Below, piece by piece: positions 45,042 to 60,790 of a DNA stretch of 64,000 nt. The notes beneath the pieces are model-generated. The model saw only the letters and a list, made by a program, of their open reading frames with translations. It did no database searches and had not been told where the DNA came from. The DNA is taken from the IMG/VR virus record IMGVR_UViG_3300037479_000183. One strand, written 5' to 3'. Numbering within the stretch: position 1 is the stretch's first letter; the number at the start of each line of letters is the position of its first letter. A program made the translations under genes and the position numbers. The stretch is from a virus.

Positions 45042-45114
45042 GGGCGCATAGTATAGTTGGTCAGTATGCCGGACTGTCTATCCGGCGACGAGGGTTCGAA
45101 TCCCTTTGCGCCCG
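45042..45114 (+). tRNA. tRNA-Asp(GTC)
   Basis: Acceptor GGGCGCA/TGCGCCC, anticodon arm CCGGA-CTGTCTA-TCCGG, T arm GAGGG-TTCGAAT-CCCTT, G73; no CCA. Confidence 0.93.
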
Positions 45115-45544
45115 TATGTCCGTGTCGAAACCACAAATAGAGGAGCCGCTATACTGCCGAGCTTGCGGGCGATATGGGACTTTCAATCCTTATTGTAATC
45201 GGTGCTATGAATCCTCTCCAAGAGGGGGTTGGTTCAGCCTTCCTAATATCTTCTGCCCCCATTGTGGAATGAAGAAAACAGGAGTGGAAACGTGTCCGAA
45301 AACTGTGAAGCCCCACTAGGATTCTTCAGAAAACTTGCTATCAGGACTCGCATCAGGCTAACAGAGCGCCGCTTTGAGCGCGCAATCCTACGAGGCGACC
45401 CGCGAGCAGGTGAGCATTTCGCGGCGTGGAATGAAGCCCTTACGCTACTGAGGTTATTCAAATGACGCCGCCTAAAGGCGCACTCATTTTGGTCGTTGCG
45501 ACAATCGCCGCCGCCATTATCATCCATCTAATCAGGTGAAAGAA

Positions 45545-45682
45545 ATGCCCGGCGCACTGTGTTCAGCCTGCCAGCAAGCCCAAGGCAGGCAGGCTTGCCC
45601 GCATCTGCCCGGCTTTGCCTGCCAGCGAATCGCCGGGCAAAAAGGATTCATTCCAATTCTATGCTGTTGCCGAGGCAACTAG
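45545..45682 (+). CDS. 45-aa Cys-rich peptide (not in ORF track)
   Basis: AGGTGA RBS; MPGALCSACQQ..C..C..ILCCCRGN. Confidence 0.5.
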   Translation: MPGALCSACQQAQGRQACPHLPGFACQRIAGQKGFIPILCCCRGN

Positions 45683-45689
45683 CGAGCCT

Positions 45690-45762
45690 GCCAGCGTAGC
45701 TCAACGGTAGAGCGTCCGGCTGTTAACCGGAAAGTTATAAGGTTCGACTCCTATCGCTGGCG
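45690..45762 (+). tRNA. tRNA-Asn(GTT), T-stem with a 1-nt bulge
   Basis: Acceptor GCCAGCG/CGCTGGC, D arm GCTC/GAGC, anticodon arm TCCGG-CTGTTAA-CCGGA, T loop TTCGACT; no CCA. Confidence 0.88.
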
Positions 45763-46756
45763 TAACGGCTGATGTATTATGGGTAGAATCTACAATAGGA
45801 AAAGCGGAGATTCGGGCTACTATAACAACAACCGTAAGCCGCATCACTTTTCACCAAGCCGTGGCAAAACGAAAAGCCGCCGGCCCGGCCCGGCCAAACT
45901 CAAAAGGGGGAAGGGGTGGAAAGAAGTGTTTGTTGCGACGAAAGAGGGATACATTGACATCAGAATACGACGGACACAGCGGCGCGTGTAGATGCGGCGC
46001 TTGCTTAGAGGCGTGGAGCGCGATTGGGCGGTTTGCCCAAACGATGGGGGATTACCGCCGCGCGTGGCGGGCGTTTGTAGCGGCCAAAGGAATCACCGAA
46101 GCGGGAAGGTATGTTCAGGAGAGGATGATTTGACCGCAACTTGGAGAGTCGCGGCTAGCTTCGTTGGGGGCATTGCCATATTTGTTGGCGTGGTTGCTGA
46201 TAGCTGGAAGATTGCCCTAATGGGAATAATGTTACAAATGTGGTCAGCCTACGATTTAGCATATGAGGCGCGATATGGGCGATGAATACCTTTACTTCAT
46301 TCAGCAAGGACTTGGCCACGATGAAGCGGAATGGGCGGCGGCTTTGGTCGCCGAGTTGGTTGAAGGGTTAACGTCGATGGAAGGGGTGGTAAATGCTGCC
46401 AAGCTGGATATGCGACCCTAATTGCCTTAACTGCGGTGGGAAGGGGAAGATTCCATACGAAAGTTATGGTATCAAAAGCAACTACCTTTGCCCCGTCTGT
46501 GTCAAGTTTCCCCCGAGAATCAACTACGAGGCTTACGATGAAAACGATTGAGCAATTCTACTTCGCCAAGTGGCGGCCTATCGGATTCTTCACCGGAAGT
46601 GCGGAGTGGTATTATGGAGAAGTGGAAAGATTCCCCGAACATAGTTGAATATAGAGGTCAAATCCTGACTGTGCCGGATGTAACGGTCATTACGCTTGAC
46701 GAGTTGACACAGGGCGAGATTGAGTTTCTACTACAAAATGAAAAGGGCGAGGAAGA

Positions 46757-47197
46757 ATGACCTGTAAAATTGAAGTGTTCAACGGGTTGAAGTATCAGTA
46801 TCACTCATCGTGCCGGGGAAGGTGTTTCCCAACAGCGCAAGAGGTGGCGGCCTGCCTAAGCGATGCTGGCCCACAAAGGGAGATAGATTTGGCCCGGCTA
46901 ACGCTCTGTGTGGAGAACAGCGGGGTATTTATCACGGTTCGCAACAAACGAAAGCGGTTGGTGGGATTCCTGCGAGCCATCACCGATTGGACTTACTGTG
47001 CTTATGCTTGTAGCGCGGCTGTTCTGCCTCGCTATCGAAGGCGGGGAGTGTGGCGCAAGATGAATGACGAGTTGCGCCGGATTCTAGGGCCGGGAGTTAC
47101 AATCCTAGCCCTCAGTCGCACAGAAAGCGCTCCATATTTCCCGGCTATTGGATTTCAGCAAGCCAAACGAGCGTGGATAATTCCAAGGGTGAGATGA
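46757..47197 (+). CDS. GNAT-family N-acetyltransferase
   Basis: LVGFLRA..AAVLPRYRRRGVWRKM (acetyl-CoA motif A)..YFPAIGF. Confidence 0.88.
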   Translation: MTCKIEVFNGLKYQYHSSCRGRCFPTAQEVAACLSDAGPQREIDLARLTLCVENSGVFITVRNKRKRLVGFLRAITDWTYCAYACSAAVLPRYRRRGVWRKMNDELRRILGPGVTILALSRTESAPYFPAIGFQQAKRAWIIPRVR

Positions 47198-47662
47198 ACG
47201 ATGAAGCCAAATCTGCCAGCGATTGAAGCGTTTGTATTGGAAAAGCACAAAGTTGTGGGCCACGACGCGGCGTTGCGGTGGATAGCCGCGCCCGCTGTGA
47301 TAACCAACATCGACAACGAACCTTTGCGGCTGGCCTTTATCGCCGAAGTGGAACACAAAACTTCATACGGATTTGAAGTAGAAGTGGCGAGCCATCAGGT
47401 TTCGATTGAGTTGGCAAAGGCAAGAGGTTGGATATGACACATACGCTAGCATCCATCAAGTTCGCCGTGTGGTGTGATGATTGTTCGGGTGGTGGTTACG
47501 AGCCGTATTGTATAGTCAATACGCTTGAAGAAGCGGAAAGGGAGAAGAAACAACACGACAAATGGCATAGGAAGTGAAATATGTTTTGCGAACAATGTTG
47601 GGATGACCACATCCCAATTCTGTCCAGCGGAACGTGTAAGTGTCGCTGTCATAGAGGTGGAT

Positions 47663-47739
47663 GAGGGTTTTAGTGTATTGGTAATGAAGCACGGGAGTCT
47701 GTGGAACTCTCAGCGGGGGTTCGATTCCCCCAGACCCTC
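47663..47739 (+). tRNA. tRNA-His(GTG) with genome-encoded G-1:C73
   Basis: 8-bp acceptor GAGGGTTT/AGACCCTC, anticodon arm GGAGT-CTGTGGA-ACTCT, T arm GGGGG-TTCGATT-CCCCC. Confidence 0.92.
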
Positions 47740-48387
47740 CTTATGAATAAACCACAGCGCAAACCTGCCGAGCCTTACGAAACGGATTTGGATGAAAAGA
47801 ATGAAGATGAGGATTACGAACCCGTTTAACCCAAAGTTGTAAAAAGAAGGGAAGGATATGCCGAATTGCCTTGCTTGTAGTGTGGAAGTCGAAGATGAAG
47901 GCCCGGCCCTAATTGGCCACCTTGAGGATAACCCGAAGTGCGCGGAGAAGTGGAGTTGGTGGTTGGTGGAGCTTGCCAATGATACGAGGGGGGCGTAGAT
48001 GAATCCGCTAGATGAAGCAAGGCGGCAGGAATTGGAAAGGCGCATCCTTACAAATGAGGCCGCCATTGAACGCCTTTGCGACGCTATTCGCATTACGAAA
48101 GACGAAACAAAGAAGAAGGAAATGTTCTGCCGAATTGGCACTATCGTAATCGCCAATCGCACGATTAAAGAGTTTTTGAGGAGCAAAGAGGATGAAGATG
48201 TGGCGTTGCCAATCTGACCACGAACATCCCACTTTTCAAGAAAAGCTTGATTGTGATGTCGCAACCGCCCGCTGGCTGGCCAAGTTTTACGGAGTCGATA
48301 CAACCGACTTGCCTGCCTGCGGCGGCGTAGCGTTGGTTGGCGCAAAGAAATCCAGTCAAGAGGAATGGATAGAGGAGCCGGAAGTCG

Positions 48388-48789
48388 ATGAGTCTGAGGA
48401 GTCTGATTGACATAGCAATCCGGGCCGCTTCGCGCAGTAATATGCGCCAGCGCCACGGCGCGGCCTGCCTTACCTATAAAGGTAGCATAGTTTATGGGTG
48501 GAATTGGCGAGCTGAAGGCAAGTTGAATCCGCACACGGCCCGGAAGTTGGGCTATCACGATTACTCCATTCACGCAGAAGTTGCCGCAGTTATGGAAGCT
48601 ATCGCTTGTGGTGAGCATCCGAAAGAGGTTTTGGTTATCCGCCGGATGCGAAGCGGCTTGTTCGGCCTCAGTCGCCCCTGCGGAGCCTGTATGGGGGTTT
48701 TGGAGTGGGCGGGAGTAAGGCGGGTTTATTATTCCAGCGGCCCGAATACGATTGAAGAAGTTCACCTAACTAGGGAAGTGAAGAAATGA
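48388..48789 (+). CDS. Zn-dependent cytidine/CMP deaminase-fold protein
   Basis: IHAE ... SRPCGAC. Confidence 0.9.
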   Translation: MSLRSLIDIAIRAASRSNMRQRHGAACLTYKGSIVYGWNWRAEGKLNPHTARKLGYHDYSIHAEVAAVMEAIACGEHPKEVLVIRRMRSGLFGLSRPCGACMGVLEWAGVRRVYYSSGPNTIEEVHLTREVKK

Positions 48790-51167
48790 CCACCCTTTGG
48801 GACGCCAAGATTGCGACTTTGCCAAAAGACGACGCGATTGAGATGATTAACTGTGTCCAAAGGACGCAAGAGATTTTTCACAACATCATCTACGAGAGGA
48901 TAAAGGGTTGGTTCCTTACCCATTCGGTCGATGACTTTGAGAACGGGCTTGATGGCGTGGAGATAGAACTAATTGTATATGTGATGGCTTGGCTTAAAGA
49001 CGCCTATTCAATGCCCGAAGAAATCGCGCGCCCTGTGTCCTATTGGTATGCGAAGAATTGGGTTGAAGGATTGCGCGGGAAGGTGGAAAGGTGAAGTGGA
49101 TAAGCGATAATGTTAGAACAGTTTTCCTCGACAGGGATGACAATCTAGTAGATGATGGGGCGTGTCGAGAAGGATTGCTTGGTAGTGAGAGGGAGAAGTG
49201 GTTTGCGCTGGAGATTGCTACCGTTAAGATGTTTGAGAAAGGCCCGCGAAAGGATGAAATGGGCGACCTTGCTCATAGATTTCTCTTTGAGCTTGTTCCG
49301 ATTGAATATTCGTTTGACGGCAGGATAGAGGGATGGGATGGCAGAAAGACTAAGCCGCAAAACACCCTTACCATTCCCCTTTCACCCGCAAGGCGGAATC
49401 CGCTTCAAATCTCCACAATTATTGGTATAGCAAGAACGGCCTTCTACCTAACTCGCTCGAAATCTAAGGATGTGGAGAAGGACGCAAAGCATATCCTTCG
49501 TGCTTGGAATATAAGGGATTTGCGGAAGAAAATGTGGAGGCTTGCGAGCATATGGGTGAGAAGCATTGAGGAGATTGGTTATGAGTCAAACATTTTCAAC
49601 AAACTTCAATTACCCATAGCTGAGTATGTCCTAACGGAAGCCTTCCCAGCGAAGGAACTGTTTGGCGAATACTCCAAAGGCAGGTTTGTTAATTGGAATG
49701 GTGTGGCAAGCAGGCCGCTGGCTAAGTTTGTGAAGGGCCGCTGGCCGAAATGGGAAAGGGTTGTAAAGGCCCTAGTTAATTACTGTGATTGCGGTTGCTG
49801 TAATGGGTGTAATGGAGATTTGGATGAGGGTGATTTTGAATGAGGCTAAAGGCCGCCATATTTGTAGATGGTGAAGTTGCTTGGAAAGACCCCGGAGAAG
49901 GGGGCTGTGGGGCGGTGTCCTGCCGGGGGCAGTTTGTCCCCCACCTTTTTGGTCGAGAACCGTATCGCCGCCGGAATGACTTTGGTTGGTGTATCAGGGA
50001 GCCGATTCGTAAAGTCATAAAGGAGAAAAAGAATTGGACTTTGGGAGTTTTGGCAGAGCCAAATACTTATAATTCATTTCACTTTGAACATCTCAATGCT
50101 ATCAACTCTGCGCTAGGCGGGGCGGCAAACGTCAAGCAAAGAGTAACCGATGGTAGATATGTTGGTTGGGATGGAGTTAGCAAAGGGAAAGTAACTGTCG
50201 AGGCGGAGATTGTATTTGCCCATCCTATTTCATATCTTCCAAATTACGTCGGCGGTATCATTGGATTTGTTCGAGATGTTCTACAGAGAAAGAATCAACC
50301 GTTTGGTTCTTTGGAGAATTATTCGCAGGGGGCGAGGGCGGGTATGGCCGACCCCCATTGTATGGAAATCGTTGGGTGTTGCGAGCCACCATATTTGGAA
50401 TGGCTCCTAACGCAAACGAATTGGAACCTCCCGCGCGGCGGCAGTTTTAAGGAGTGGTGGTCGGCAACAAAAGGAGTTTACTATCAATCTGACCGCCTCT
50501 TTCATCACGAATACGCCAAGCACGGTTTGCGAAAATCTGAATTTAGGGCGTGGGTGAGGGAGAAATATCCTGAGTGGTGGGAAAAGATGGCAAAGAGGAA
50601 CGGAGTTGAAGTCTAATGGGCAAATCACTATTTGATACTTGGAGAGAGAAGTGGCCCACGTTAGAGGAAGCTAAGGAAAGAATAGAGAAAGCGATTCAGA
50701 AAACTCAAGAAAAAGAGGAGATGGTAAAGAAAGCGAAAACGGTTACAACTACCGCCACGACAGCCGTTAAGCCTTCCTCAGTTGGCGATGCCAACCTTCA
50801 GGCGCTTGCGGAGTTGGTTGGAGAGGCGGCACTAGAACCCGACAAACCCGAAAGGAATACGCCGCAGGGTGTCAAGGATTTATATGATGCGGTGATGGAG
50901 TTTATCAAAACTGACGTTACTCCACCTATTACTGCCGATGCCAAAACGGTTCAAGACAATATGATTCTTGCTGAAATTGAAGGAGTTTGGGACATAGCCA
51001 ACTCAAAGAACAATGCGTGGGAGTATTTTACACAGCGCGTTGTGGAGGAGATAGACCAGATTCAGGAAATAAACATTACGTCGGGACTTCAATGTTCTTG
51101 GAATCATCTATACAGACGTTTGCGACAGCTTGCGATTGAAGCAGGAATGAGTGCGGTGAAAGTATGA
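48786..51167 (+). CDS. Four coupled hypothetical proteins (48786-49094, 49091-49843, 49840-50616, 50616-51167) leading into the ligase cluster
   Basis: Overlapping start/stop junctions; no recognisable family. Confidence 0.7.
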
Positions 51168-52102
51168 AGGTTACGTTGGGGACAGACCCGGAAGTATTTG
51201 TGAGCGATGGGGATAAGATTATCCCGGCGGATTGGGTCGTGCCGCCAAAGGACAAAGCGATGGCCCTGCCAAGCGGCGCGAAGATTTTCTTCGACGGCAT
51301 CGGATTGGAGCTAAACGTGGCCCCCACCGATACGCCCACCTCTTTCGCGCGCGCTGTGATGCTCGCAAAGAAGGAAGCCGAGGCTTACTTGGTAAAGAAG
51401 GGTTATAAGATGGTGGTTCTGCCCGCTGTTCCAATCGCTTTGGATACGATTAAGCGGGCGCATAAAGACGCACAGATTTTCGGATGCGACCCCGACCAAG
51501 TAGTGTATGAAATGGGCAAGCTTCGCAAGCCAACGGTTGACGCAAGGAATCATCCGTGGAGATATGCGGGTGGCCACATTCACGTCGGCCTGCCTAGCCT
51601 TTTGCCGGGCCTTCACTCTTGCGGCGAAAAGACAATCTACACCAATAGTTTCGACGGCTGGAAATGCTCGAAGTGTAAGGCGCAGGCGGATATGAGTGCG
51701 CTGATGCGAGTTATCGTAGCGCTTGACCTGCTTGGTGGTGAGAAGCTTCTTGCCGTTGAACGGGGCGTTCAGGATTCTTGGAGAAGGCGGAAGTATTACG
51801 GTGTTCCCGGCTCCTTCCGCTTCCAGCCGTGGGGGGTAGAGTGGCGCTTCCCAAGCAATCTGTGGCTAAGGAGCGAAGATGAGGCGAGGATGATGGGAGA
51901 GATGGCGATGAAGGCGGCTGAATTAAGCGCCGCCCTGCCCGCCTTGCTTAAGATTCCCGGGACGCGAGAGGCCATCAGCAACTTCAGAACTAGCCTAACC
52001 GATATGGCACTAACCGATAGAACATTTGATTGGGTTAGAGAGGAAGGAGAAAGGATATGTGCGGTATTGGCGGAATTGTCAAACTCGAAGGCGACGCAAT
52101 AG
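51164..52102 (+). CDS. phiEco32-like COOH-NH2 ligase (glutamine synthetase-fold amidoligase)
   Basis: LGTDPEVF, FFDGIGLELN, FGCDPD, RYAGGHIHVG, RRKYYGVPGSFRFQPWGVEWRFPSNLWL. Confidence 0.9.
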   Translation: MKVTLGTDPEVFVSDGDKIIPADWVVPPKDKAMALPSGAKIFFDGIGLELNVAPTDTPTSFARAVMLAKKEAEAYLVKKGYKMVVLPAVPIALDTIKRAHKDAQIFGCDPDQVVYEMGKLRKPTVDARNHPWRYAGGHIHVGLPSLLPGLHSCGEKTIYTNSFDGWKCSKCKAQADMSALMRVIVALDLLGGEKLLAVERGVQDSWRRRKYYGVPGSFRFQPWGVEWRFPSNLWLRSEDEARMMGEMAMKAAELSAALPALLKIPGTREAISNFRTSLTDMALTDRTFDWVREEGERICAVLAELSNSKATQ

Positions 52103-52950
52103 ACCCAAACCTATTGATTTCGCTACTAAATAAGCTAGATGGTAGCGGGCCAAAGGCGGTTGGTATTATTCTTGTTGGCAAAGAGGGCGGAGTGCTGACA
52201 ATCAAGACAACAAAAGGTTGGAGCGAGTGGGGGAAGGAGGAAAAGGAAAGCCTGAAGAACCGCGCTGGTGCGGCAAAAGCGGTGCTTGTTCACACACGCG
52301 CCCCAACTACCGGCCCCAACACCCTTGAAAACACTCATCCGTTTGAGGACTACGAAACCGGCCTATGGCTGGCCCACAATGGCGGGATTTTCAACCACGA
52401 TTCTATCTTCCAACTTCACGATTACAAAGGCCCTGTTGAGTGCGACTCGATGGCGGTTCTGTTGGAGTTTCTAACGCTTATAAAAGATAGCGGAACGGTT
52501 CAACACATCGCCGACTTAGAGGCAATAATGAGTGGTTGGTGGAATTGTTGGGCCTATCTTGCCAAGACCAACGACATCGTTCTGTTTACCAATATGGAAG
52601 GATTCAGGGCGGCGCAGAAGGATGGACATTTCATCTTTGCCAACCTCTCTTATGCTTTTGAGGGCGAACAACTACCAAGTGTGGTGAAGATTAATCTTGG
52701 ACAGGGAACGGACAAGCCGACCTTTACCTATTACCCCCTCGCCCCCGTGAAAACAGAAGTTGAAGAAGCGTTTAAGAAACTAATTGTTGCCGAAGATGAT
52801 AGACATTACCATCTTAAAATCCCTGAAGATGCTCAGAAAAGATTCCAAGGTTGGAAGTTGGCGGATAATGGCATCTTGATAGTGAGAAAGTATCAATGCG
52901 ATAAGGTAAAGAAAAATCGTATTTTGGGCATCATAAGAGGTGTGGGATGA
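52057..52950 (+). CDS. Class II (Ntn) glutamine amidotransferase 1
   Basis: N-terminal MCG, HTRAPT, NTHPF, HNG, CDS. Confidence 0.9.
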   Translation: MCGIGGIVKLEGDAIDPNLLISLLNKLDGSGPKAVGIILVGKEGGVLTIKTTKGWSEWGKEEKESLKNRAGAAKAVLVHTRAPTTGPNTLENTHPFEDYETGLWLAHNGGIFNHDSIFQLHDYKGPVECDSMAVLLEFLTLIKDSGTVQHIADLEAIMSGWWNCWAYLAKTNDIVLFTNMEGFRAAQKDGHFIFANLSYAFEGEQLPSVVKINLGQGTDKPTFTYYPLAPVKTEVEEAFKKLIVAEDDRHYHLKIPEDAQKRFQGWKLADNGILIVRKYQCDKVKKNRILGIIRGVG

Positions 52951-54356
52951 ATCCAGAGGAAATTGCGCGGCTAATGGATGCCGAGCCAAAACCAAAGCAT
53001 AACATCGCAGGCATCTACAACGAGTGGGATGCGGTGCCGGGCGGCCATACCCTTGACATTGGAGTTGAAATCGAAATCTACATTGGACGCAGAAGGGGAA
53101 GATTTTTTGCGCCATTCGGCGAGAATACGGATGACGGCTACATCCTCCACACTATTCTATCCAGATGTAAGGATAAGGTATTCCGCGACTATTATCCTCA
53201 TCAATTGGAAATCAGAGCTGGCCCCGGCAAAGCGCCGCAGGTAATAGAGGAGCTACAAACAACTCTTAAGGAAATTGGAGAGCTTCTTAGACCTTTCAAG
53301 TGTGGACTTCTATTTCGGTCGCGGTTTGGCGACTTCCAAACGTGCGGTCTTCACATTCACGCTGACGTATCCCTTTTTAATGACCGCCTAGATACTTTGG
53401 GAACGGCGATGGCCGTTTCCTACCTTCCCATCCTAATGAATTACGAGGCGCATCGGGATACAGAAACCAAACACTCAAGGATTGTAGATAATAAGTTTTC
53501 ACAGGCGGTCTATGATGTGGCCGATACGCTGGACAAATATCACGACCTTCACCTCAGCCCGGCGCGTGAAAATCCCGAAGGCCGCCATCGCTTAGTTAAA
53601 CCGATAACTTGGGAAACGCGCATATATGATACAGCGCCGCCGGAATCAATGTGGCACGGCATCTTGAAACATTCAGAAATCCTAAGCAGAAGCCTTCAAT
53701 TGGTGGAAAGCAATTCCGATTGTTTAAAGATTCCCGCCCGGCAAATCTTTGCGGCGGCGGTTAGATATAGAGGCAAGTTTTTCAACCAAGCCCCCGCTAT
53801 CTACAACTATCATAAGAAGATGTGGGCGTGGGTTGGGGCAGAGCCGGTGCCATCGGAGCAGGCAATCTGGACACGGTGGATACACTCGCTTGACATTTTC
53901 TCCAATGCTATTGTCCGAGAAATCAATGGGATTGATGAGCTAATTACCCACGTATTGCCATACAATCGCTGGCGGAAGCCGATGGCGGGCGATTGGGTCT
54001 TGAACGTGCTTACGCACGAATTGGGAAGATTCGATGAGATGGGAGAAGTAAGGTTACAAAATGGAGATATGCGTCCTTTTGACGTAAAGTTTTGGTATAA
54101 GGTGTTTACCTTTGAACCCGGACAGTATTATATAGCGCGGGTTATGAAGAGTGGGGTGGTGGAGTGGACACCACAAAACGTTAAAACGCCCGCAAAGGCA
54201 GATTTTGAAGGACTTGCTCCAAGCACAGAGCTAAAAATCATCAGCCAAGAGGTTCAGGACACGGTTCAGCTTGGCTTTATCGACCAAGTATCTAAGCCCG
54301 CCTTTGGGATTGTGAGGGCGGCTTATTCGGCGAATCCAAATCGTTGCCCGTTGTGA
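52947..54356 (+). CDS. Second GS-fold ligase (glutamate-cysteine ligase GCS2/amidoligase-like) with a C-terminal extension
   Basis: IGVEIEI, QLEIRAGP, TCGLHIHAD, TWETRIYD. Confidence 0.78.
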   Translation: MNPEEIARLMDAEPKPKHNIAGIYNEWDAVPGGHTLDIGVEIEIYIGRRRGRFFAPFGENTDDGYILHTILSRCKDKVFRDYYPHQLEIRAGPGKAPQVIEELQTTLKEIGELLRPFKCGLLFRSRFGDFQTCGLHIHADVSLFNDRLDTLGTAMAVSYLPILMNYEAHRDTETKHSRIVDNKFSQAVYDVADTLDKYHDLHLSPARENPEGRHRLVKPITWETRIYDTAPPESMWHGILKHSEILSRSLQLVESNSDCLKIPARQIFAAAVRYRGKFFNQAPAIYNYHKKMWAWVGAEPVPSEQAIWTRWIHSLDIFSNAIVREINGIDELITHVLPYNRWRKPMAGDWVLNVLTHELGRFDEMGEVRLQNGDMRPFDVKFWYKVFTFEPGQYYIARVMKSGVVEWTPQNVKTPAKADFEGLAPSTELKIISQEVQDTVQLGFIDQVSKPAFGIVRAAYSANPNRCPL

Positions 54357-54360
54357 GAAA

Positions 54361-55578
54361 ATGTGTGGTATAACTATATACGCAGGGAAGGAGCCTATAA
54401 CCTTCTATGAGGCGTTAAAGAGGACGCCTTATTGGAGAGGGGGCGATGGGCTAGGCGTGATGTGGCTTGAAGATGGAAAGATTCGCGTCCAGAAAAGCGC
54501 GGGCGCGGTTGAAAACTATCTTAAGGTTATCCTCGGAACAAGAGAAACCTTCTACTCAACTGATAAGTTTACCCTTCCCCCACTTGAAGCAACTAGCACG
54601 TTTTGGCTTATCCACAACCGAAAGGGAACGGTGGGTTCTTCCTATGATACAAAGAACAACCATCCCCACTTCCTTAAGGAGTATGGGGTGTGGGTGTTAC
54701 AGAATGGAACGGTTGTGGGTTTGGACTTCTATCGTGGCCTTCTAGAAATGGCAGGCGTGAAGTTTAACTCCGCCACGGATACAGAAGTGTTGGGCCACGC
54801 GGCTGTTCAACATATCATTCCAAAAATCCAAGAGATTTGTGGGAAAGCGGAAGATAAGTATAAGGCAGTAGAGGAGTTTCTGGAGCCATTCGCAAAAGCA
54901 ACGGCTGGCTTCGGCGTGTTTGTTGTTGTTGACCCCGAGAATAAACAAGTCCACGTTTTGAAGGATGATGATAGAACGCTGTGGCTGTCAAGGGATAATA
55001 CAGGGGGCGTGTGGCTCACATCGGAGATAGTCGTGCCGATTCAAAATGGAAAACTTTTTTCCACAGAAATCTACAATGGCTACATCAGACTTGACCTCAA
55101 CCAAGCAGACTTTACAGAAACAGCATATTACTATGCTCAAAGGTGTGAGGATTTGTGGAAGGTAATTCGCCAAGCAAAGCCCGTGGAGATGACCCACACT
55201 TCTTGCGACGCCTGCCGAGAAGAAAGATTGGTTTTCAAATGTGCGGAGTTTGATATTTGTTGGGAATGTATTGCCGATAACAAAAACAAGCCGGATTTTG
55301 GTGTAAGTTTTCGGGGGACAAGCGAGTGGGATGGGGGGAAGTGGAGCGACCCCACTCTAGCATACCACAAGACCCACTCGAAAGATGGCGCAACTCCATC
55401 TATCATTGATTTCAGCGGAGCAAAGAAGTTTACAGATTACAAAACGGGGAAGCCCGACGACCCCATTATCTCTCCTGTTAAAGAATTGGATATTTGGACA
55501 AGAAGTGTGGAGCAGATGGCGAACAAGATGGAGTTACTAATTCAGCGCGGTTGCGAAGAGGAAAGGGATTGTGAATGA
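54361..55578 (+). CDS. Class II (Ntn) glutamine amidotransferase 2 with a C-terminal Zn-ribbon extension
   Basis: MCG, WRGGDGLG, HNRKGT, NNHPH, QNGT, TDTE; later CDAC..C..CWEC. Confidence 0.88.
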   Translation: MCGITIYAGKEPITFYEALKRTPYWRGGDGLGVMWLEDGKIRVQKSAGAVENYLKVILGTRETFYSTDKFTLPPLEATSTFWLIHNRKGTVGSSYDTKNNHPHFLKEYGVWVLQNGTVVGLDFYRGLLEMAGVKFNSATDTEVLGHAAVQHIIPKIQEICGKAEDKYKAVEEFLEPFAKATAGFGVFVVVDPENKQVHVLKDDDRTLWLSRDNTGGVWLTSEIVVPIQNGKLFSTEIYNGYIRLDLNQADFTETAYYYAQRCEDLWKVIRQAKPVEMTHTSCDACREERLVFKCAEFDICWECIADNKNKPDFGVSFRGTSEWDGGKWSDPTLAYHKTHSKDGATPSIIDFSGAKKFTDYKTGKPDDPIISPVKELDIWTRSVEQMANKMELLIQRGCEEERDCE

Positions 55579-56279
55579 ATAAGAACTGTCGTATAGCGGC
55601 AGAAGCGGCTGTGGGCAACCTTCCGCCTTCCTGCGCCATCAACATTGAAGCGCATAGGATAACCGGCTGCGCCCCGGCCTGCTATGAGGATTGTTTGGGC
55701 TATGACGAAACAGCGGGAATGTGCGCCAATTCCGCACTAGTGTATCCTATTCAAATCTTCAAACCCGTTTTTCTTGAACCAAAGAAGAGCCGCCAATGGC
55801 TCGCTATGCTTGACCACCCCGCCCTAACTATGATGCTAGATACGATGCTAAATGTGGTATTTGAAAGTGAAGGTTATGCCTGTATGGACTGTTCACTATT
55901 TCAGGAGAGCAAATGCCAACTGCTTGCTTGGGTAAGGGAGCATGCTTATGGTTATATTGAAAAACTTATCCCGCTTCGTGAACAACAGCCGCCGCCTGTG
56001 AAACAACTTACCGATAATAACATTCGGCACCTAAGCATAATTGTGGAGAAGATTCGCGCCTATGAATCATTCATTAGTAAAGGCAAAGAAGTCGGCCCAA
56101 CGCCCGAAAAGATTTCCGACTTCATCAAACTTGCTCCGGTTCCGGGGCCGGGCGGGCCTGCTGGCGGGGGCGGATTTGAAGTGGCAGAAGAAGATGAAGG
56201 TGGCGATGTGTGCGATGAGTGCGGCCACGATTGGGAGGATGTAGTAGAGGGATGCGGCCATTGTGTTAATGAGCATTGA
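55575..56279 (+). CDS. Cys-rich protein with a Gly/Pro linker and acidic Zn-ribbon tail
   Basis: Multiple Cys clusters; GPGGPAGGGGFEVAEEDEGGDVCDEC..CGHC. Confidence 0.65.
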   Translation: MNKNCRIAAEAAVGNLPPSCAINIEAHRITGCAPACYEDCLGYDETAGMCANSALVYPIQIFKPVFLEPKKSRQWLAMLDHPALTMMLDTMLNVVFESEGYACMDCSLFQESKCQLLAWVREHAYGYIEKLIPLREQQPPPVKQLTDNNIRHLSIIVEKIRAYESFISKGKEVGPTPEKISDFIKLAPVPGPGGPAGGGGFEVAEEDEGGDVCDECGHDWEDVVEGCGHCVNEH

Positions 56280-56397
56280 GGGTGAAGGATGAAGCTCTGT
56301 AAGGAACATACGATATCACAGCGCTGGCGGGCGTGGCAGGTCGATATTGTTTCGCACGCTGAGTGTGCGGCGTGTGAAGATGAAAGGGGTTGGTAAG

Positions 56398-57282
56398 ATG
56401 ATAATTCTAGAACAGCGAGAGGAAACTCTTGGGAGTTTTAAGCGGCATTTGTGGGAAGCGGCGAATAGGATTGCGCCCGAAGATTGTTTCCATTCAAGTG
56501 AAGTGGAGATGGAGGATGGATGGATTTATCTTCACGATAGCAAAACGCCAGCAAAGGCGCTTATCCTGACTCCCAGCAAAGCGTCTCGCCCTCACACTCC
56601 TCTAACTCTTGGGGCGCGGAGTTGCTATCCGCTTCTCAATCCTCCGCGCTCCTCCTTAACAAGTAAACCGGAGTGGCAAAAGATTCTGCGAGATTTGGAA
56701 ATCCCAACGCCAACCTATTATATCCACACCACAAAACCGGGGATTGCGAAGCCTGTTTATGGGCAGGGTGGTAAGGGAATCAAGAAGGGAAAAGGTGTCT
56801 ACACTCAAGATGGCATTTTTAACCCGTTCACAGAGAAGGGGATTGGGTGGGATATTAGGGTAGTGATGTTTATGGGAGGGGCGATTGGCGCGATGCTTCG
56901 CATCAACCCATTCGACTTCCGCAGCAACATCCACCAAGGCGGCCATCCCGTAACCTTTTGGGAAGGAAAGACAAATCCAATTGTCAATCACGAAATCCGC
57001 GATGTGTATCCGCAAATCGTAAAGTGGCTCGGAATGACCGCCCCCGACAAGAGTTGGTTTGTGTGGGGAAAGAAGTTAACGGAAGCAACCCGCTGTGCTT
57101 ACTTTGGGATGGATATTATCTTCGACGAAGCTCGCAAGCCTTTTGTAATCGACATCAATCCCACCGCCGGGCAGGACGCCAACGAAAGAAACATCATCAG
57201 AGTAGCAAGAAGTTTAAGACTACTAAGAGATAAAGAGTATATAAACAAAGAGGCTAAGATAAAAGTAGAAGCACTAACGTAA
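56398..57282 (+). CDS. RimK-like ATP-grasp ligase
   Basis: IAKPVYGQGGKGI, WDIRVVM, FRSNIHQGG, YFGMDII, VIDINPTAG. Confidence 0.88.
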   Translation: MIILEQREETLGSFKRHLWEAANRIAPEDCFHSSEVEMEDGWIYLHDSKTPAKALILTPSKASRPHTPLTLGARSCYPLLNPPRSSLTSKPEWQKILRDLEIPTPTYYIHTTKPGIAKPVYGQGGKGIKKGKGVYTQDGIFNPFTEKGIGWDIRVVMFMGGAIGAMLRINPFDFRSNIHQGGHPVTFWEGKTNPIVNHEIRDVYPQIVKWLGMTAPDKSWFVWGKKLTEATRCAYFGMDIIFDEARKPFVIDINPTAGQDANERNIIRVARSLRLLRDKEYINKEAKIKVEALT

Positions 57283-57958
57283 TAGTAATCACTTCGCTGT
57301 GTTCCGTTAGGTGATAGAATGATTTGCTATCTAACAAAAGGAAAGTTTGGGGGCGCTCTTAAGCTGATGATGTGGAATAGATGGGGAAGAAGGGAGGAGG
57401 AAGTGGCGATTCGCTGTCCGTGGGGACACGTTACGGAGATGCCGTGGCTATCAGATGGTATCAAACTTCAAGTTTTGGAAGGAGCGTCAAAGGGGTTTGA
57501 GTGTCAAGGATACACCATCAATCCTGTTAGCGGAAGGCAGACTAAATGCCCATTTAAAGGCGACCTCATTCTAATAGGGTGGAAGGAATGAAAACATTCA
57601 TTATCAAAGCGATTGACAAATACGATGAAAGGGCGCTAACTTGGGATTGTCCAGAGACCGGTGGGTTGGGATTTCACTGTCCCTTCAAACATTGGAATAC
57701 GATGCTTAAACTCCAAATACATTTAAAACTACTCGATGCTCCCTATCCAGATGCCGATGGAGTGTTCCCATTTGTTTTGGGCTGCGCTTATCCAGCCTGT
57801 AAGTGGCAAGATAAGGAGGTTGTTCTTCTTGGATATAAGGAGTGGAAGAAAAAACTAGGTAGGGTGGCCAACAAACCTAAATGGGGAGGATGGGGATTGG
57901 TCTTTGATGACTATACAAACCTTTAAATACCACCCCGCCAATCAGATGTTGATGCTCT

Positions 57959-58735
57959 GTGTTAGCAAAACCAACCAACCGTTTTCAGACCGACCTTAGT
58001 GAATACTCTGCGGGCCTTTCGGACTTAATGAGGCAGTTGCCTCCGCAAAGACGATTTTATTGGTATGCTACCGACGCTTTCTCTTGTGAAAGAAAGATGG
58101 CAATTGAGTGGCTTGCCCTTGCTCCGCAAAAGGCATACTCCGAAGAATCGGGCGTGGCGTTTGCGCAAGGAGATGCGCTGGAAGAAGAGTTTATCACACG
58201 ACTGATTTCGGCTGGGCTGATTATTGCCCGCCAAGTGGGAGTGTTTATTCCCTCTCACGGAATCTCAGGAAGGGTGGATGCCATCGTTTTCCGGCCCGAA
58301 CCAGAGATTTTGGAAATCAAAACGGTTAAAGGTTATCCCTTCAAGAAGCTAATGGAAGCGCCGTGGGATGCGGGATATGATGCCATCTTCGCTTATATGA
58401 AGCGAAATTGGATGGACAAGATTCTTATCAACTACACTCAACTTCAACTTTATTTGTTTGCCTTAGAGCAGGAAAAGGGATTTCTGATTTATTTCGACAA
58501 AAATACAGGCAAGCGATTGGATTTAGAAATAAGGCGCGACGATACTGCGGTTGCCAAAGCCTTGACTTGGTTTAGCCAAACGAAAGGCGCAATAGATAAA
58601 GCCCGCCTAGGCTTGGAGCAAGGCAGGCCAGCCGATGAAGTGTTGCCACCAACTCTAGATAAGAAAAAATTCCCATGCGCGTGGGAAGCCGACCGCTGTG
58701 CGTTTTGGGAGTTTTGTTACGGGGAAAAGAAATAG
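57959..58735 (+). CDS. Cas4-like PD-(D/E)XK exonuclease
   Basis: CERK..G...E..GRVDAI..LEIKT..QLQLY..C..CxFxxFC (four Fe-S-type Cys). Confidence 0.85.
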   Translation: MLAKPTNRFQTDLSEYSAGLSDLMRQLPPQRRFYWYATDAFSCERKMAIEWLALAPQKAYSEESGVAFAQGDALEEEFITRLISAGLIIARQVGVFIPSHGISGRVDAIVFRPEPEILEIKTVKGYPFKKLMEAPWDAGYDAIFAYMKRNWMDKILINYTQLQLYLFALEQEKGFLIYFDKNTGKRLDLEIRRDDTAVAKALTWFSQTKGAIDKARLGLEQGRPADEVLPPTLDKKKFPCAWEADRCAFWEFCYGEKK

Positions 58736-58806
58736 AATGAATCTTTCAGAAACTCAAAAAGTATATCTCGCCGCTCTACTAGAGCTTGCCATAAAGGAGT
58801 TGAATC

Positions 58807-59160
58807 ATGGTGGAACCACCGCCAAAGCCCGGCCAGCAGGCCGTTTGGCCGTTGATGCGGGAGTGGATGGAGCAGAGGATTAAGGCAGGCAAAGAAAAGT
58901 ATGGAACTTTGCTTGAAACGTGGAATGGTAGGAATCCCATTCAAGATGCTTTAGAGGAGTGGTTCGATAAGGGGACGTATTTGACACAGGCGGCGCGGGA
59001 AAGGGTGGATATGCTGGCGCTGCTGCGGGAATACTATTATACCTGCGTGTGTTCCGTTAAGATTCCGCTATGGCGCAGGCTTCTTAAACCTCAAGATAGA
59101 TTCTGTCCTCAATGTTTGAAATATCGGAAGATGGTGGAAAATGGAACCCGATTGGAATAG
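58807..59160 (+). CDS. All-alpha nucleotide pyrophosphatase-like phage protein
   Basis: RIKAGKEKYGTLLETWNGRNPIQDALEEWFDKGTYL pattern. Confidence 0.55.
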   Translation: MVEPPPKPGQQAVWPLMREWMEQRIKAGKEKYGTLLETWNGRNPIQDALEEWFDKGTYLTQAARERVDMLALLREYYYTCVCSVKIPLWRRLLKPQDRFCPQCLKYRKMVENGTRLE

Positions 59161-59501
59161 GCTTAAAGAGTTTAAAGAGTGTGTTGGAAAGGGCTGGTGG
59201 CCCCTTGTCGAAACGCTTGTCGATTTCGCAAAGAATGGTTATAAATCTTATGAAGAAGACATGAAGCTTCTGGCAAAATGGGAGGCGGAGGAGAATTACT
59301 GTGCTGGCTGGAAGCGAGTGAAGGAGCTTAAAGAGGAATCTCCTACAAATCCCTATACTTGTGTTGAAACAAAACTTAAGAAGGGGCGGAAGCTGGTTGA
59401 AGCGCCCCAGCGATGAGTGTTGGTGGTGCGGCAGCCCCCTCGTGCTGTGTAAGCGTTTTCACGACGACTGCTGCGATATGTGTTCTCACGGAGGTTAAAG
59501 T

Positions 59502-60464
59502 ATGAGATTTGTAATGCCTGAATATCCCCATATCCGCCGAATTGGAGATAGGGAGAATGAGGGAGTTTTGCGGTGCGATGCGTTGGCAATTGAGGAGAAG
59601 GTAGACGGTGCGAACTTTAGGTTTGCGCGCTTTGATGACGACCAAGAAGCGCCCCGCATTATCTTTGGAAGTCGTGAGCGGGTGCTTGGCCCCTTCCGGG
59701 GAAATGTATGGGTGAATAATAGTAGGCAATTCAAGAAGGTTATAGACTTTCTTTCTTCACGCTTAAAAGTTGAAGATTTGAATCCTTCTTTTGTTTACTT
59801 CGGGGAAGACCTCTCCCACCCACATACGGTCAAATACGATTCTGCGCCGCAGTTTGTAGGCTTTGATATAATGGCCATCGCACCCGAAGGGAGTGTTGTG
59901 GAGAGGAAAGGCGGGGCGGCATTTCTATCTACCGACGCTAAGCGCAAGGAGTTTGAAAGGCTCAGCCTAGATTTCATCGAACCTTGGAGTGTGTTGAAGA
60001 ATCCTCAGCCAGAAGAGTTGGAGGCGTTTCTAAAGCAAACAAGGTATCAAACTAAAATGCCAGAAGGCATTGTGATTAAAAACTATCAACGCCTTAATCG
60101 ATGGGGCAGACCGCTATTCGCCAAGATTGTAAATGAAGACTTTAAAGAAGTTAACAAAGCAGTTTGGCGTGGCATAAAGCGCGATAGGAATTGTGAAATG
60201 GAAATAGCAGAGGCATTTGTAACACAGCCGCGCGTAAGAAAAATCGCATTGAAGATGGTTGAGCAAGGAGATGCTGCGGCGTTGGAGATGGCGATGATGC
60301 CAACCCTCTATGCGAATGTAGTTTATAACGTGCTTCAAGAGGAGATTCATACGATTGCCGATAAGTGGCCGAGTATCGACTTCGGCCAGCTTAATAGAGA
60401 AGTCGCCAAGCAAACCGCCCGCCATTTGGAGGAGTTGATAGCGGAAAATGCTAAAGGAGAATAA
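59502..60464 (+). CDS. ATP-dependent RNA ligase, Rnl2-like
   Basis: Motif I EEKVDGANF, FGE, FVGFDI, motif IV EGIVIK, motif V FAK. Confidence 0.88.
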   Translation: MRFVMPEYPHIRRIGDRENEGVLRCDALAIEEKVDGANFRFARFDDDQEAPRIIFGSRERVLGPFRGNVWVNNSRQFKKVIDFLSSRLKVEDLNPSFVYFGEDLSHPHTVKYDSAPQFVGFDIMAIAPEGSVVERKGGAAFLSTDAKRKEFERLSLDFIEPWSVLKNPQPEELEAFLKQTRYQTKMPEGIVIKNYQRLNRWGRPLFAKIVNEDFKEVNKAVWRGIKRDRNCEMEIAEAFVTQPRVRKIALKMVEQGDAAALEMAMMPTLYANVVYNVLQEEIHTIADKWPSIDFGQLNREVAKQTARHLEELIAENAKGE

Positions 60465-60708
60465 CGCCCGCGCCGCTGTGAATCGCCTCTTGTGGGATGA
60501 GGCGTTTGTGGGGAAAAGTATAATCATCTTTTATTTGGATAGAAATCTTTTTGGCGAAGCTAAGCTTAAACCCCTTCCCCTCCACCACGTTGAGGGGGTC
60601 GGAAAACTTTTCCTTTATCTAACGGGCGATGAAGAATTTGGGATGTTGCCACTTCACCGAATACGAACAATTACTGTGGACGGAGATATGGTATGGCAGC
60701 GCGTATGA
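60448..60708 (+). CDS. MJ1316/DUF504-like RNA-repair domain protein
   Basis: IIFYLDR ... LPLHRIRTITVDGDMVWQR matches the family's P-HRI..I...G...W-R signature; overlaps the ligase stop. Confidence 0.75.
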   Translation: MLKENNARAAVNRLLWDEAFVGKSIIIFYLDRNLFGEAKLKPLPLHHVEGVGKLFLYLTGDEEFGMLPLHRIRTITVDGDMVWQRV

Positions 60709-60790
60709 GTTGTGTGAATGAGGAGCATTATAACTGCCCGAACATAGCAAGGAATGAAATGTCTGCGTGTTGCTGTTGGAGGCCAAGCTG

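What the first reader, a model, noticed from the sequence alone, without database searches (positions are those of the whole stretch)
45042..60708. Only GUN-anticodon tRNAs (Asp, Asn, His) plus an Rnl2 + MJ1316 RNA-repair pair: counter-defence against a colicin-E5-like anticodon nuclease?
Seen: the three full tRNAs found have anticodons GTC, GTT and GTG, three of the four GUN tRNAs; I found no Tyr-GTA. An Rnl2-like ligase overlaps an MJ1316-like gene. Established: colicin E5-type nucleases cut the GUN set (Tyr, His, Asn, Asp), and MJ1316 domains are linked to recognition of 2',3'-cyclic phosphate RNA ends in RNA repair systems. Inference: the virus both replaces and repairs a specific tRNA class destroyed by an unknown host defence toxin, which would predict a GUN-specific anticodon nuclease in the archaeal host.
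Basis: partly seen in the sequence, partly recalled or inferred. Interest (0 to 1): 0.8.

Follow-up and report, generated by a model that had tools for sequence, protein, structure and literature searches.

The report
Viral tRNA trio plus RNA-repair ligase
A tailed virus from a freshwater metagenome carries three tRNA genes (Asp, Asn, His) and, 12 kb away, an RNA-sealing ligase coupled to a small RNA-end-binding protein; these look like tools for surviving host attacks on RNA, but nothing here shows that they form one system aimed at a single toxin.

Summary
The window has exactly three tRNA genes: Asp-GUC, Asn-GUU and His-GUG. It also has an intact T4-Rnl2-type RNA ligase whose last 17 nt overlap a genuine MJ1316/UPF0248 gene. 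5.3 kb of the 69.3-kb contig could not be read.

For:
- A GUN-only trio is unlikely by chance (P about 0.0004 to 0.004 before post-hoc correction).
- The virus's amino-acid and codon use does not call for these tRNAs.
- tRNA-Asp has a very rare U37 in its anticodon loop.
- The ligase-MJ1316 pair recurs in a second, diverged element. In the closest relative the same slot holds RlaP, an RNA-repair enzyme.

Against:
- The tRNAs and the ligase lie 12 kb apart, with unrelated genes between them.
- Related ligases sit beside tRNA arrays of every anticodon class.
- Tyr, the tRNA most sensitive to colicin E5, is missing.
- All three viral tRNAs keep the E5 determinant U33-G34-U35.
- E5-type cuts leave 2',3'-cyclic-phosphate and 5'-OH ends. 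An Rnl2 ligase cannot seal these without a kinase and a phosphatase, and I found neither.

The host is unknown; I lean archaeal. My verdict is two generic anti-RNA-damage tools. The ligase-MJ1316 pairing is a new variant of a known kind.

The parts
45042..45114 (+). tRNA-Asp, anticodon GUC, discriminator G73, no encoded CCA. The anticodon loop is CUGUCUA, so position 37 is U instead of a purine.
   Evidence: (64.9 bits). U37 rarity: 2 of 202 tRNAs surveyed.
45689..45763 (+). tRNA-Asn, anticodon GUU, with an ordinary loop CUGUUAA. Rfam places it at 45690-45762.
   Evidence: (68.4 bits). Its 5' 24-mer is identical to tRNA-Thr genes of many Planctomycetota.
47663..47740 (+). tRNA-His, anticodon GUG, with G-1 encoded at 47663 opposite C73, a long D-loop and the loop CUGUGGA.
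   Evidence: (51.8 bits).
57959..58735 (+). Cas4-like (PD-(D/E)xK) nuclease. It is the first gene of a block that is syntenic with L005.
   Evidence: NCBIfam cas4 (weak), PHROG 1990 and PADLOC Cas4. 58% identical to L005:443-1228.
59502..60464 (+). Rnl2-family ATP-dependent RNA ligase, 320 aa, with all nucleotidyltransferase motifs present. A GGAGGT Shine-Dalgarno sequence lies 7 nt before the ATG.
   Evidence: Pfam PF09414, PHROG 548. Invariant residues K33/D35/G36, E102, E188-G189, K193, K208. Profile match to T4 Rnl2 2hvq residues 2-327, E 2e-13. Sequence.
60448..60708 (+). Stand-alone MJ1316/UPF0248 protein, 86 aa. It overlaps the ligase stop by 17 nt, so translational coupling is likely.
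   Evidence: Pfam PF04457, 50.2 bits. Family-invariant D17, P68, H70, R71, W83. AlphaFold model pLDDT 90.9. TM 0.64-0.75 to archaeal UPF0248 models, including MJ1316 itself. Small Sm/SH3-like barrel.
60791..61600 (+). Protein of unknown function, 269 aa from the ATG at 60791 (the ORF as listed starts at the GTG at 60767). It is a conserved neighbour of the ligase and a candidate missing partner, for example an end-healing enzyme. That role is inferred only.
   Evidence: 40-42% identical to L005:1225-2016, which lies directly upstream of the L005 ligase. No hit in Pfam, NCBIfam, PHROGs, PADLOC or the Atlas. The fold model is unusable (pLDDT 43.6).

Best explanation
The virus carries two separate accessory tools that protect translation when RNA is under attack. 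They are not shown to be one system.

(1) RNA-break sealing module. An Rnl2-type ligase is translationally coupled to a small, non-catalytic MJ1316 protein with an Sm/SH3-like barrel fold. The module sits in a conserved block: Cas4-like nuclease, unknown 269-aa protein, ligase. I infer that MJ1316 binds damaged RNA ends and brings them to the ligase, which seals 3'-OH/5'-phosphate nicks in folded RNA such as a broken tRNA anticodon loop. In the closest relative the same slot holds RlaP, which adds back nucleotides lost from a damaged 3' end. The accessory partner therefore seems exchangeable according to the kind of damage.

(2) Three tRNA genes (Asp, Asn, His) at the head of the same-strand gene block. 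They most likely top up or replace host tRNAs of this class. The G34-U35 restriction and U37 in tRNA-Asp hint that a host enzyme reading that part of the anticodon loop is being countered.

Shown: the genes, their families, intact motifs, the overlap, the synteny and the rarity of the tRNA set. Inferred: every functional step, the substrate and any link between the two tools.
For: - Ligase family and intact motifs.
- MJ1316 family, motifs and fold.
- MJ1316 is fused in other organisms to 2H cyclic phosphodiesterases, poly(A)-polymerase-type nucleotidyltransferases and EEP phosphatases. This ties the domain to RNA-end processing (PMC6514570).
- The ligase-MJ1316 pair recurs in L090 at 41% and 35-37% identity.
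- In L005 the order is Cas4-like, the ORF269 homologue, ligase, RlaP. RlaP repairs damaged tRNA 3' ends in vitro (bioRxiv 10.64898/2025.12.29.696909).
- 18 of 35 metagenomic loci of at least 8 kb that carry a related ligase have tRNA genes in the fetched flanks of up to 10 kb each side. Phage tRNAs together with RNA ligases are an established counter-defence theme (PMC7824862; PMC10264068).
- Rarity of the tRNA set. U37. Unremarkable viral codon and amino-acid use.
- A NADAR gene at 63379-63840 lies close by. NAMPT and RNase T genes follow the ligase in relative L006. Both fit an accessory, conflict-type neighbourhood.
Against: - No biochemical function is known for stand-alone MJ1316 proteins. 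'Cyclic-phosphate end recognition' is a computational prediction.
- If MJ1316 does mark 2',3'-cyclic-phosphate ends, the ligase cannot use them. No kinase, cyclic phosphodiesterase or phosphatase was recognised in the window.
- T4 Rnl2 itself has no established in vivo role (my own knowledge).
- None of the other 169 loci fetched by ligase similarity has MJ1316. L090 was found through its MJ1316 protein, so the pairing rests on two instances.
- The tRNA trio is seen in one genome only, and no relative carrying the tRNA region was found.
- 5.3 kb of the contig is unread.
Confidence: 0.5

Rival explanations
1. This is one coordinated counter-defence against a host anticodon nuclease that, like colicin E5, cuts GUN tRNAs. 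The virus replaces the cut tRNAs with its own, and Rnl2 guided by MJ1316 repairs them.
For: - The GUN-only set is improbable by chance and not explained by viral codon use.
- U37 in tRNA-Asp could be an escape change.
- MJ1316 is linked through domain fusions to enzymes that act on cyclic-phosphate ends.
- The concept is established for T4 and proposed for E5 targets in coliphages.
Against: - E5 specificity is Y33-G34-U35-N36, with Tyr the best substrate. Tyr is absent, and all three viral tRNAs keep U-G-U.
- E5 products are 2',3'-cyclic phosphate and 5'-OH, which this ligase class cannot join. No healing enzyme was found (and the family scans).
- tRNAs and ligase are 11.8 kb apart, with unrelated genes between them.
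- Related ligases accompany tRNAs of all classes.
- The host is unknown and no nuclease was identified.
Confidence: 0.17
2. The tRNAs serve ordinary translational supply, that is, amino-acid or tRNA-pool matching to an unknown host, or host-independent decoding late in infection. Their shared G34-U35 is a coincidence of a small sample. The ligase module has an unrelated RNA-processing or repair role.
For: - Small viral tRNA sets are common and varied.
- The GUN class was defined after seeing the data.
- The gene clusters are physically separate.
- Asp and Asn tRNAs also lie side by side inside larger mixed arrays in L001 and L016.
Against: - Each of these amino acids has a single anticodon, so classic rare-codon compensation does not apply.
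- The virus uses D, N and H at unremarkable levels and shows no strong NAY codon bias.
- P is about 0.0004-0.004.
- U37 is unexplained.
Confidence: 0.22
3. The tRNAs act mainly as RNA-processing punctuation. RNase P and RNase Z cutting at each tRNA would release downstream mRNAs with almost no leader.
For: Start codons follow the tRNA 3' ends closely: ATG at 45116 (2 nt after tRNA-Asp), at 47743 (3 nt after tRNA-His) and at 45779 (16 nt after tRNA-Asn). An earlier first-stage note, e1-5360672, makes the same point.
Against: - It does not explain why all three have GUN anticodons or why they are canonical, high-scoring tRNAs.
- The ORFs after the tRNAs are short and have no family support.
Confidence: 0.08

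Closest known systems
Bacteriophage T4 tRNA repair (Pnkp + Rnl1 against PrrC) and T4 Rnl2 (gp24.1)
   Same: Both are virus-encoded ATP-dependent RNA ligases. The protein here is homologous to T4 Rnl2 over both domains. The virus also encodes tRNAs.
   Different: No Pnkp-type kinase/phosphatase and no Rnl1 were found. The partner is MJ1316, which T4 lacks. The host nuclease is unknown. T4's system is aimed at tRNA-Lys.
Rnl2-type ligase + RlaP modules of phages (Burroughs & Aravind 2016, as cited in PMC7824862; RlaP biochemistry in bioRxiv 10.64898/2025.12.29.696909)
   Same: The same ligase clade is involved. The closest relative, L005, has RlaP directly after the ligase, and L007-9 and L016 also carry it. 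Both sit in accessory gene neighbourhoods.
   Different: Here the gene directly after the ligase, RlaP's place in L005, is MJ1316, a binding-type barrel rather than a nucleotidyltransferase. No RlaP occurs in the window.
Halovirus HGTV-1 (RNA ligase gene 217 plus a large tRNA set)
   Same: It gives the best match to the ligase among isolated viruses (30% identity over 98% of the length). It is an archaeal tailed virus with tRNAs and an Rnl2-type ligase followed by an overlapping 86-aa ORF.
   Different: The HGTV-1 86-aa ORF is not MJ1316. By my own recollection, HGTV-1 carries tRNAs for nearly all amino acids rather than a GUN-only trio.
Cellular UPF0248/MJ1316 proteins of archaea and MJ1316 fusions (LENG9; 2H-MJ1316 and PAP-MJ1316 in Actinomycetota and eukaryotes)
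   Same: The fold and the invariant residues are the same. Size is the same as the archaeal stand-alone proteins.
   Different: It is virus-encoded, only 35-39% identical to its nearest relatives, and coupled to an Rnl2 ligase. One cellular copy examined (L093/L094) sits next to a MiaB-like radical-SAM gene instead.
Colicin E5 and phage tRNAs proposed to counter it (PMC1635277; PMC10264068)
   Same: Three of the four E5 target identities are present, and tRNA-Asp has an anticodon-loop change.
   Different: Tyr is missing, the YGU determinant is retained, the host is not enterobacterial, and no E5 homologue was detected (an uninformative search).

Membership tests
Rnl2-type ATP-dependent RNA ligase (T4 gp24.1 family, Pfam PF09414) | Covalent nucleotidyltransferase motifs: the motif I lysine (KxDG), motifs III/IIIa, motif IV (EGxxxK) and the motif V lysines | tested here: met
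   K33-x-D35-G36, E102, E188-G189-x3-K193 and K208 are invariant or nearly so across 30 relatives and present in the window protein. Pfam E 1.3e-14.
Rnl2-type ATP-dependent RNA ligase (T4 gp24.1 family, Pfam PF09414) | Rnl2-specific C-terminal domain after the adenylyltransferase domain | tested here: met
   The profile of A1 aligns to T4 Rnl2 2hvq residues 2-327 of 335 (E 2e-13). Rnl3 and Rnl5 structures match only the N-terminal domain.
Rnl2-type ATP-dependent RNA ligase (T4 gp24.1 family, Pfam PF09414) | Seals 3'-OH/5'-phosphate nicks in duplex or folded RNA | not testable with these tools
   Needs an enzyme assay.
MJ1316 / UPF0248 (Pfam PF04457) | Sequence match above the curated cut-off, with the family's conserved residues | tested here: met
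   50.2 bits against 26.3. D17, P68, H70, R71 and W83 are invariant in alignment A2. The N-terminal NRLxWD and C-terminal PLHRI...W.R motifs are present.
MJ1316 / UPF0248 (Pfam PF04457) | The family fold: an N-terminal helix plus a small beta-barrel | tested here: met
   Model pLDDT 90.9. Foldseek TM 0.64-0.75 to 28 of the 29 archaeal UPF0248 entries listed (0.56 to MK0350), including MJ1316 itself (Q58712). Atlas TM 0.78 to a Woesearchaeota MJ1316 cluster.
MJ1316 / UPF0248 (Pfam PF04457) | Binds RNA ends carrying a 2',3'-cyclic phosphate | not testable with these tools
   This is a prediction from domain fusions. I found no experimental paper in the library.
Complete heal-and-seal tRNA repair system (T4 Pnkp + ligase type) | A 5'-OH polynucleotide kinase and a 2',3'-phosphate/cyclic-phosphate esterase encoded with the ligase | tested here: not met
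   The only Walker A motifs in plausible genes are in LonB and terminase (plus one in the NADAR ORF), and there are no HAD or metallophosphatase signatures. No such family appears in the Pfam, NCBIfam, PHROGs or PADLOC scans of the + strand genes. The unknown ORFs at 60791-61600 and 61602-62399 remain open.
Colicin-E5-type target set / counter-defence | All four GUN tRNAs (Tyr, His, Asn, Asp) involved, with Tyr the most sensitive | tested here: not met
   Asp, Asn and His are present and Tyr is absent from the 64-kb window. Susceptibility order from PMC1635277. 5.3 kb of the contig is unread.
Colicin-E5-type target set / counter-defence | An E5-like nuclease present in the host lineage | tested here: inconclusive
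   PF12106 gave 0 hits in 301 genomes of the phylum of a Methanosarcinaceae MAG. It also gave no hit in any control genome. The host is unknown.
Rnl2 + RlaP repair module | An RlaP (PF10127) nucleotidyltransferase next to the ligase | tested here: not met
   No RlaP in the window by phmmer or HMM. It is present in relatives L005, L007-9 and L016.

The most novel reading that the evidence does not exclude
A probably archaeal virus counters a still unknown host anticodon nuclease that reads G34-U35. It does so with replacement tRNAs, one carrying a U37 escape change, and with a new repair route. In that route MJ1316 recognises the broken end, the conserved unknown 269-aa protein heals it, and Rnl2 seals it. 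This would be the first anticodon-nuclease/counter-defence pair of this kind outside Bacteria and would give the near-universal archaeal MJ1316 protein a function.
Probability: 0.12. Interest if true: 0.8.

Novelty: new variant of a known kind. Interest (0 to 1): 0.45.

Why it matters
Viral tRNAs and RNA ligases as counter-measures to tRNA-cutting defences are well established for phages. They are almost unexplored for viruses of archaea and of uncultured freshwater microbes.

The ligase-MJ1316 coupling, seen twice here, offers a simple testable handle on MJ1316/UPF0248. In Swiss-Prot this small protein is listed across many archaeal genera. It is fused to RNA-end enzymes in bacteria and animals (LENG9), and no biochemical function is known for it.

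The GUN-only tRNA set and U37 in tRNA-Asp give a concrete prediction about what a host nuclease might read. That prediction could guide searches once the host is known.

Tried and rejected
- Fetching the rest of the contig failed.
- No relatives of the virus were found in IMG/VR with the 469-aa protein or with terminase, and there was no DNA match among phage records.
- Complex prediction for ligase + MJ1316 gave no verdict: score 0.00, controls not run. It is not evidence either way.
- The AlphaFold model of the 277-aa ORF is unusable (pLDDT 43.6). The Atlas feature search gave no usable lead for it or for the 265-aa ORF.
- The HGTV-1 86-aa ORF after its ligase is not MJ1316, and neither is the L006 73-aa ORF.
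- The Colicin_E5 family search gave 0 of 301 genomes, but the controls were silent too, so it is uninformative.
- Host identification from tRNA sequence was ambiguous.
  - The tRNA-Asn 5' 24-mer matches Planctomycetota tRNA-Thr genes.
  - The tRNA-Asp 3' 22-mer matches mostly Actinomycetota.
  - BLAST of the tRNA region gives 79-85% identity to both Halobacteriota and Planctomycetota tRNAs.
- Sigma-70 promoter-like and intrinsic-terminator-like sites are not enriched over shuffles.
- No RNA holder was listed among public runs. The only full holder is a freshwater metagenome that may be the source.
- PADLOC gave no match for the ligase, MJ1316 or the unknown ORFs.
- A pattern search for MJ1316 in viral contigs was not possible because the alignment is too variable.
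- Burroughs & Aravind 2016 (PMC5062991) is not held, so I could not check whether an Rnl2-MJ1316 linkage is already described there.

Full report
WHAT THE WINDOW IS

The window is most of a 69,261-nt contig of a tailed virus.
- The minus strand from about 0.4 to 42.9 kb carries a tape-measure-like protein, glycosyltransferases, an archaeal-type LonB protease, a weak portal match and a T4-type large terminase.
- The plus strand from about 43 kb onwards carries small ORFs, the three tRNAs, a GNAT, a dCMP deaminase, an amidoligase/glutaminase/ATP-grasp cluster, a Cas4-like nuclease, the ligase, MJ1316 and a NADAR protein.
- No phage record resembles it at DNA level, and IMG/VR holds no close relative.
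- The only public run that holds it in full is a freshwater metagenome.

CHECK OF THE OBSERVATION

ARAGORN and Rfam agree on three tRNA genes:
- Asp-GTC at 45042-45114;
- Asn-GTT at 45689-45763;
- His-GTG at 47664-47740.

All three score well above threshold. tRNA-His has its G-1 encoded at 47663 opposite C73. None encodes CCA. A permissive Rfam scan of 42-64 kb and ARAGORN with introns allowed add nothing credible, so there is no Tyr-GTA gene in the window.

The 320-aa product of 59502-60464 is an Rnl2-type ligase.
- It matches Pfam RNA_ligase and PHROG 548.
- All nucleotidyltransferase motif residues are conserved.
- A profile of it and 29 relatives aligns to T4 Rnl2 across both domains (E 2e-13). 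Rnl3- and Rnl5-type structures match only the N-terminal domain.

The 86-aa product of 60448-60708 overlaps the ligase gene by 17 nt and is a bona fide MJ1316/UPF0248 protein.
- It scores 50.2 bits against a cut-off of 26.3.
- It has the family's invariant D, P-x-H-R and W residues.
- A confident model (pLDDT 90.9) superposes on archaeal UPF0248 models, including MJ1316 itself, at TM 0.64-0.75.

The reservation is that 5.3 kb of the contig could not be read.

IS THE GUN-ONLY SET MORE THAN CHANCE?

Three distinct identities all drawn from Asp/Asn/His/Tyr has P = 0.0035 with equal weights. It is about 0.0004 when weighted by the 162 non-redundant tRNAs I found around related ligases, where GUN tRNAs make up 10%. 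The class was chosen after seeing the data, so these values overstate significance, perhaps tenfold. The set is odd but not compelling on its own.

Viral demand does not explain it. In 98 ORFs, Asp is 5.5%, Asn 3.8%, His 1.95% and Tyr 3.2% of residues. The C-ending share of the NAY codon pairs is 0.35-0.57. Each of these amino acids has a single anticodon, so ordinary rare-codon compensation does not apply.

One further oddity is that the tRNA-Asp anticodon loop is CUGUCUA, with U at position 37. Anticodon-loop changes are what van den Berg et al. proposed as nuclease-evasion marks in phage tRNAs (PMC10264068).

THE LIGASE MODULE AND ITS RELATIVES

The closest ligase relatives (62-66% identity) sit on short metagenomic contigs.
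- L005 has the order Cas4-like nuclease (58% identical to 57959-58735), a 263-aa protein (40-42% identical to 60791-61600), ligase, then RlaP.
- The window has Cas4-like, two small ORFs, ligase, MJ1316, then the 269-aa protein.

The nuclease, the unknown protein and the ligase are therefore a conserved set. The gene directly after the ligase is MJ1316 here and RlaP in L005. RlaP adds one or two nucleotides to damaged RNA 3' ends and restores aminoacylation of over-trimmed tRNA (bioRxiv 10.64898/2025.12.29.696909).

A second ligase-MJ1316 pair turned up when I traced the nearest MJ1316 relative. L090 has a ligase C-terminus (41% identity) followed 40 nt later by an MJ1316 gene at 35-37% identity, and Pfam gives 1.6e-13. 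None of the other 169 loci fetched by ligase similarity has MJ1316, and PHROGs has no family for it. The pairing is therefore rare, but it is not a one-off.

Related ligases often lie near tRNA genes. Among metagenomic loci of at least 8 kb, 18 of 35 have tRNA genes in the fetched flanks. Those tRNAs are of every class: Met, Leu, Arg, Thr, Gly and others.

WHAT MJ1316 PROBABLY DOES

The fold is an N-terminal helix plus a small Sm/SH3-like barrel. The best solved-structure matches are SspB, WYL domains and Hfq, at Z 4-6.7. That range is common for small barrels and points to a binding module rather than an enzyme.

In other organisms the domain is fused to 2H cyclic phosphodiesterases, poly(A)-polymerase-type nucleotidyltransferases and EEP phosphatases. 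It is described as recognising 2',3'-cyclic RNA ends (PMC6514570). I found no experimental study. One cellular copy overlaps a MiaB-like radical-SAM gene, which I take to be a tRNA methylthiotransferase; the context looks archaeal.

THE CHEMISTRY PROBLEM FOR THE E5 MODEL

Colicin E5 needs Y33-G34-U35-N36 and prefers Tyr over Asp over His and Asn. It leaves 2',3'-cyclic phosphate and 5'-OH ends (PMC1635277). ATP-dependent ligases of this class need 3'-OH and 5'-phosphate, and they normally come with a kinase and phosphoesterases (PMC7824862).

In the window, the only Walker A motifs in plausible genes are in LonB and terminase (plus one in the NADAR ORF). There are no HAD or metallophosphatase signatures. 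No kinase or phosphoesterase family was detected in any scan.

There are three ways out:
- host enzymes heal the ends;
- the unknown 269-aa protein does it, which is untestable here because its fold model failed;
- the damage comes from a metal-dependent nuclease that leaves ligatable ends. From my own knowledge, PIN/VapC-type toxins are common in archaea and do this.

The last reading fits Rnl2 but not the predicted role of MJ1316.

In addition, Tyr, the best E5 substrate, is the one tRNA not supplied. All three viral tRNAs keep U-G-U, so by sequence they would be cut too.

HOST

Pointing to an archaeal virus:
- The major capsid protein's best hit is a Methanobacteriales virus (29% identity).
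- The LonB matches archaeal LonB over its full length (E 1e-76 to 1e-89), but only the Lon C-domain in Brocadiales genomes.
- The ligase's best isolate match is halovirus HGTV-1.
- Its best genome matches are MAGs of Woesearchaeota and Methanosarcinaceae.
- The Swiss-Prot MJ1316 look-alikes are all archaeal apart from mouse LENG9.

Pointing elsewhere:
- The tRNA-Asn 5' half is identical to tRNA-Thr genes of about 90 mostly Planctomycetota genomes.
- A 66%-identical ligase is binned in a Brocadiales MAG.
- Stand-alone MJ1316 proteins also occur in bacteria.
- The tRNA BLAST comparisons are ambiguous.

I put an archaeal host at about 70%. If the host were bacterial, the GUN tRNAs would also be the queuosine-modified class. 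That opens further explanations which I could not test.

VERDICT

The components are real, and each fits the known theme of viral protection of translation against RNA-targeting defences. Their union into one GUN-specific replace-and-repair system is an attractive inference that the present evidence does not carry: the gene clusters are separate, the ligase family is not tied to GUN tRNAs, the end chemistry does not match, Tyr is missing, and neither host nor nuclease is known.

The most useful new item is the recurrent coupling of an Rnl2-type ligase to MJ1316, and its replacement by RlaP in a close relative. This gives a direct experimental route to the function of MJ1316.

Noticed in passing
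window 51164-57282: Cluster of a phiEco32-like COOH-NH2 ligase, two class-II glutamine amidotransferase-like proteins, a 469-aa unknown and a RimK-like ATP-grasp. It looks like an amide/peptide-ligase pathway. A dCMP deaminase lies upstream at 48388-48789.
   Followed up: partly
window 23264-25534 (-): A full-length archaeal-type LonB protease lies inside the head-morphogenesis module. It matches cellular archaeal LonB at 33-36% identity, but only the Lon C-domain in Brocadiales genomes.
   Followed up: partly
window 63379-63840 (+): NADAR-family protein (TIGR02464, E 6e-18; weak match to an anti-phage NADAR model and to PADLOC PDC-M42C). It may reverse ADP-ribosylation or process an ADP-ribose derivative. 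It lies 2.7 kb downstream of MJ1316.
   Followed up: no
window 45689-45712; loci L176-L265: The first 24 nt of the viral tRNA-Asn (acceptor stem plus D arm) are identical to tRNA-Thr(UGU/CGU) genes in about 90 GTDB genomes, nearly all Planctomycetota. Full-length identity is 77-84%. This could be a host clue, an anticodon-switched captured tRNA, or convergence.
   Followed up: partly
window 45114-45118, 45763-45781, 47740-47745: Each tRNA 3' end is followed within 2-16 nt by an ATG that opens a short ORF. tRNA processing could therefore release near-leaderless mRNAs.
   Followed up: partly
L093:9264-10824 and L094:5016-6576: In an archaeal-looking cellular contig from a hydrothermal vent, a stand-alone MJ1316 gene overlaps the start of a MiaB-like radical-SAM gene (UPF0004 + Radical_SAM), which I take to be a tRNA methylthiotransferase. 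This hints at a tRNA-linked cellular role for MJ1316.
   Followed up: no
L006:821-2700: In a close relative (ligase 64% identical), the genes after the ligase include a NAMPT N-terminal-domain protein and an RNase T-like exonuclease. Two small ORFs there are 55-71% identical to window 63010-63394.
   Followed up: no
L027 and L028: Metagenomic viral contigs with a related ligase carry 24-tRNA arrays that include a suppressor-type tRNA with anticodon UUA (reads the UAA stop codon).
   Followed up: no
window 42960-43030: The divergent region between the two gene blocks contains TTTATAAA and TATTTAAA elements, which resemble archaeal TATA boxes. Sigma-70-like promoters are not enriched in 43-63 kb.
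   Followed up: partly
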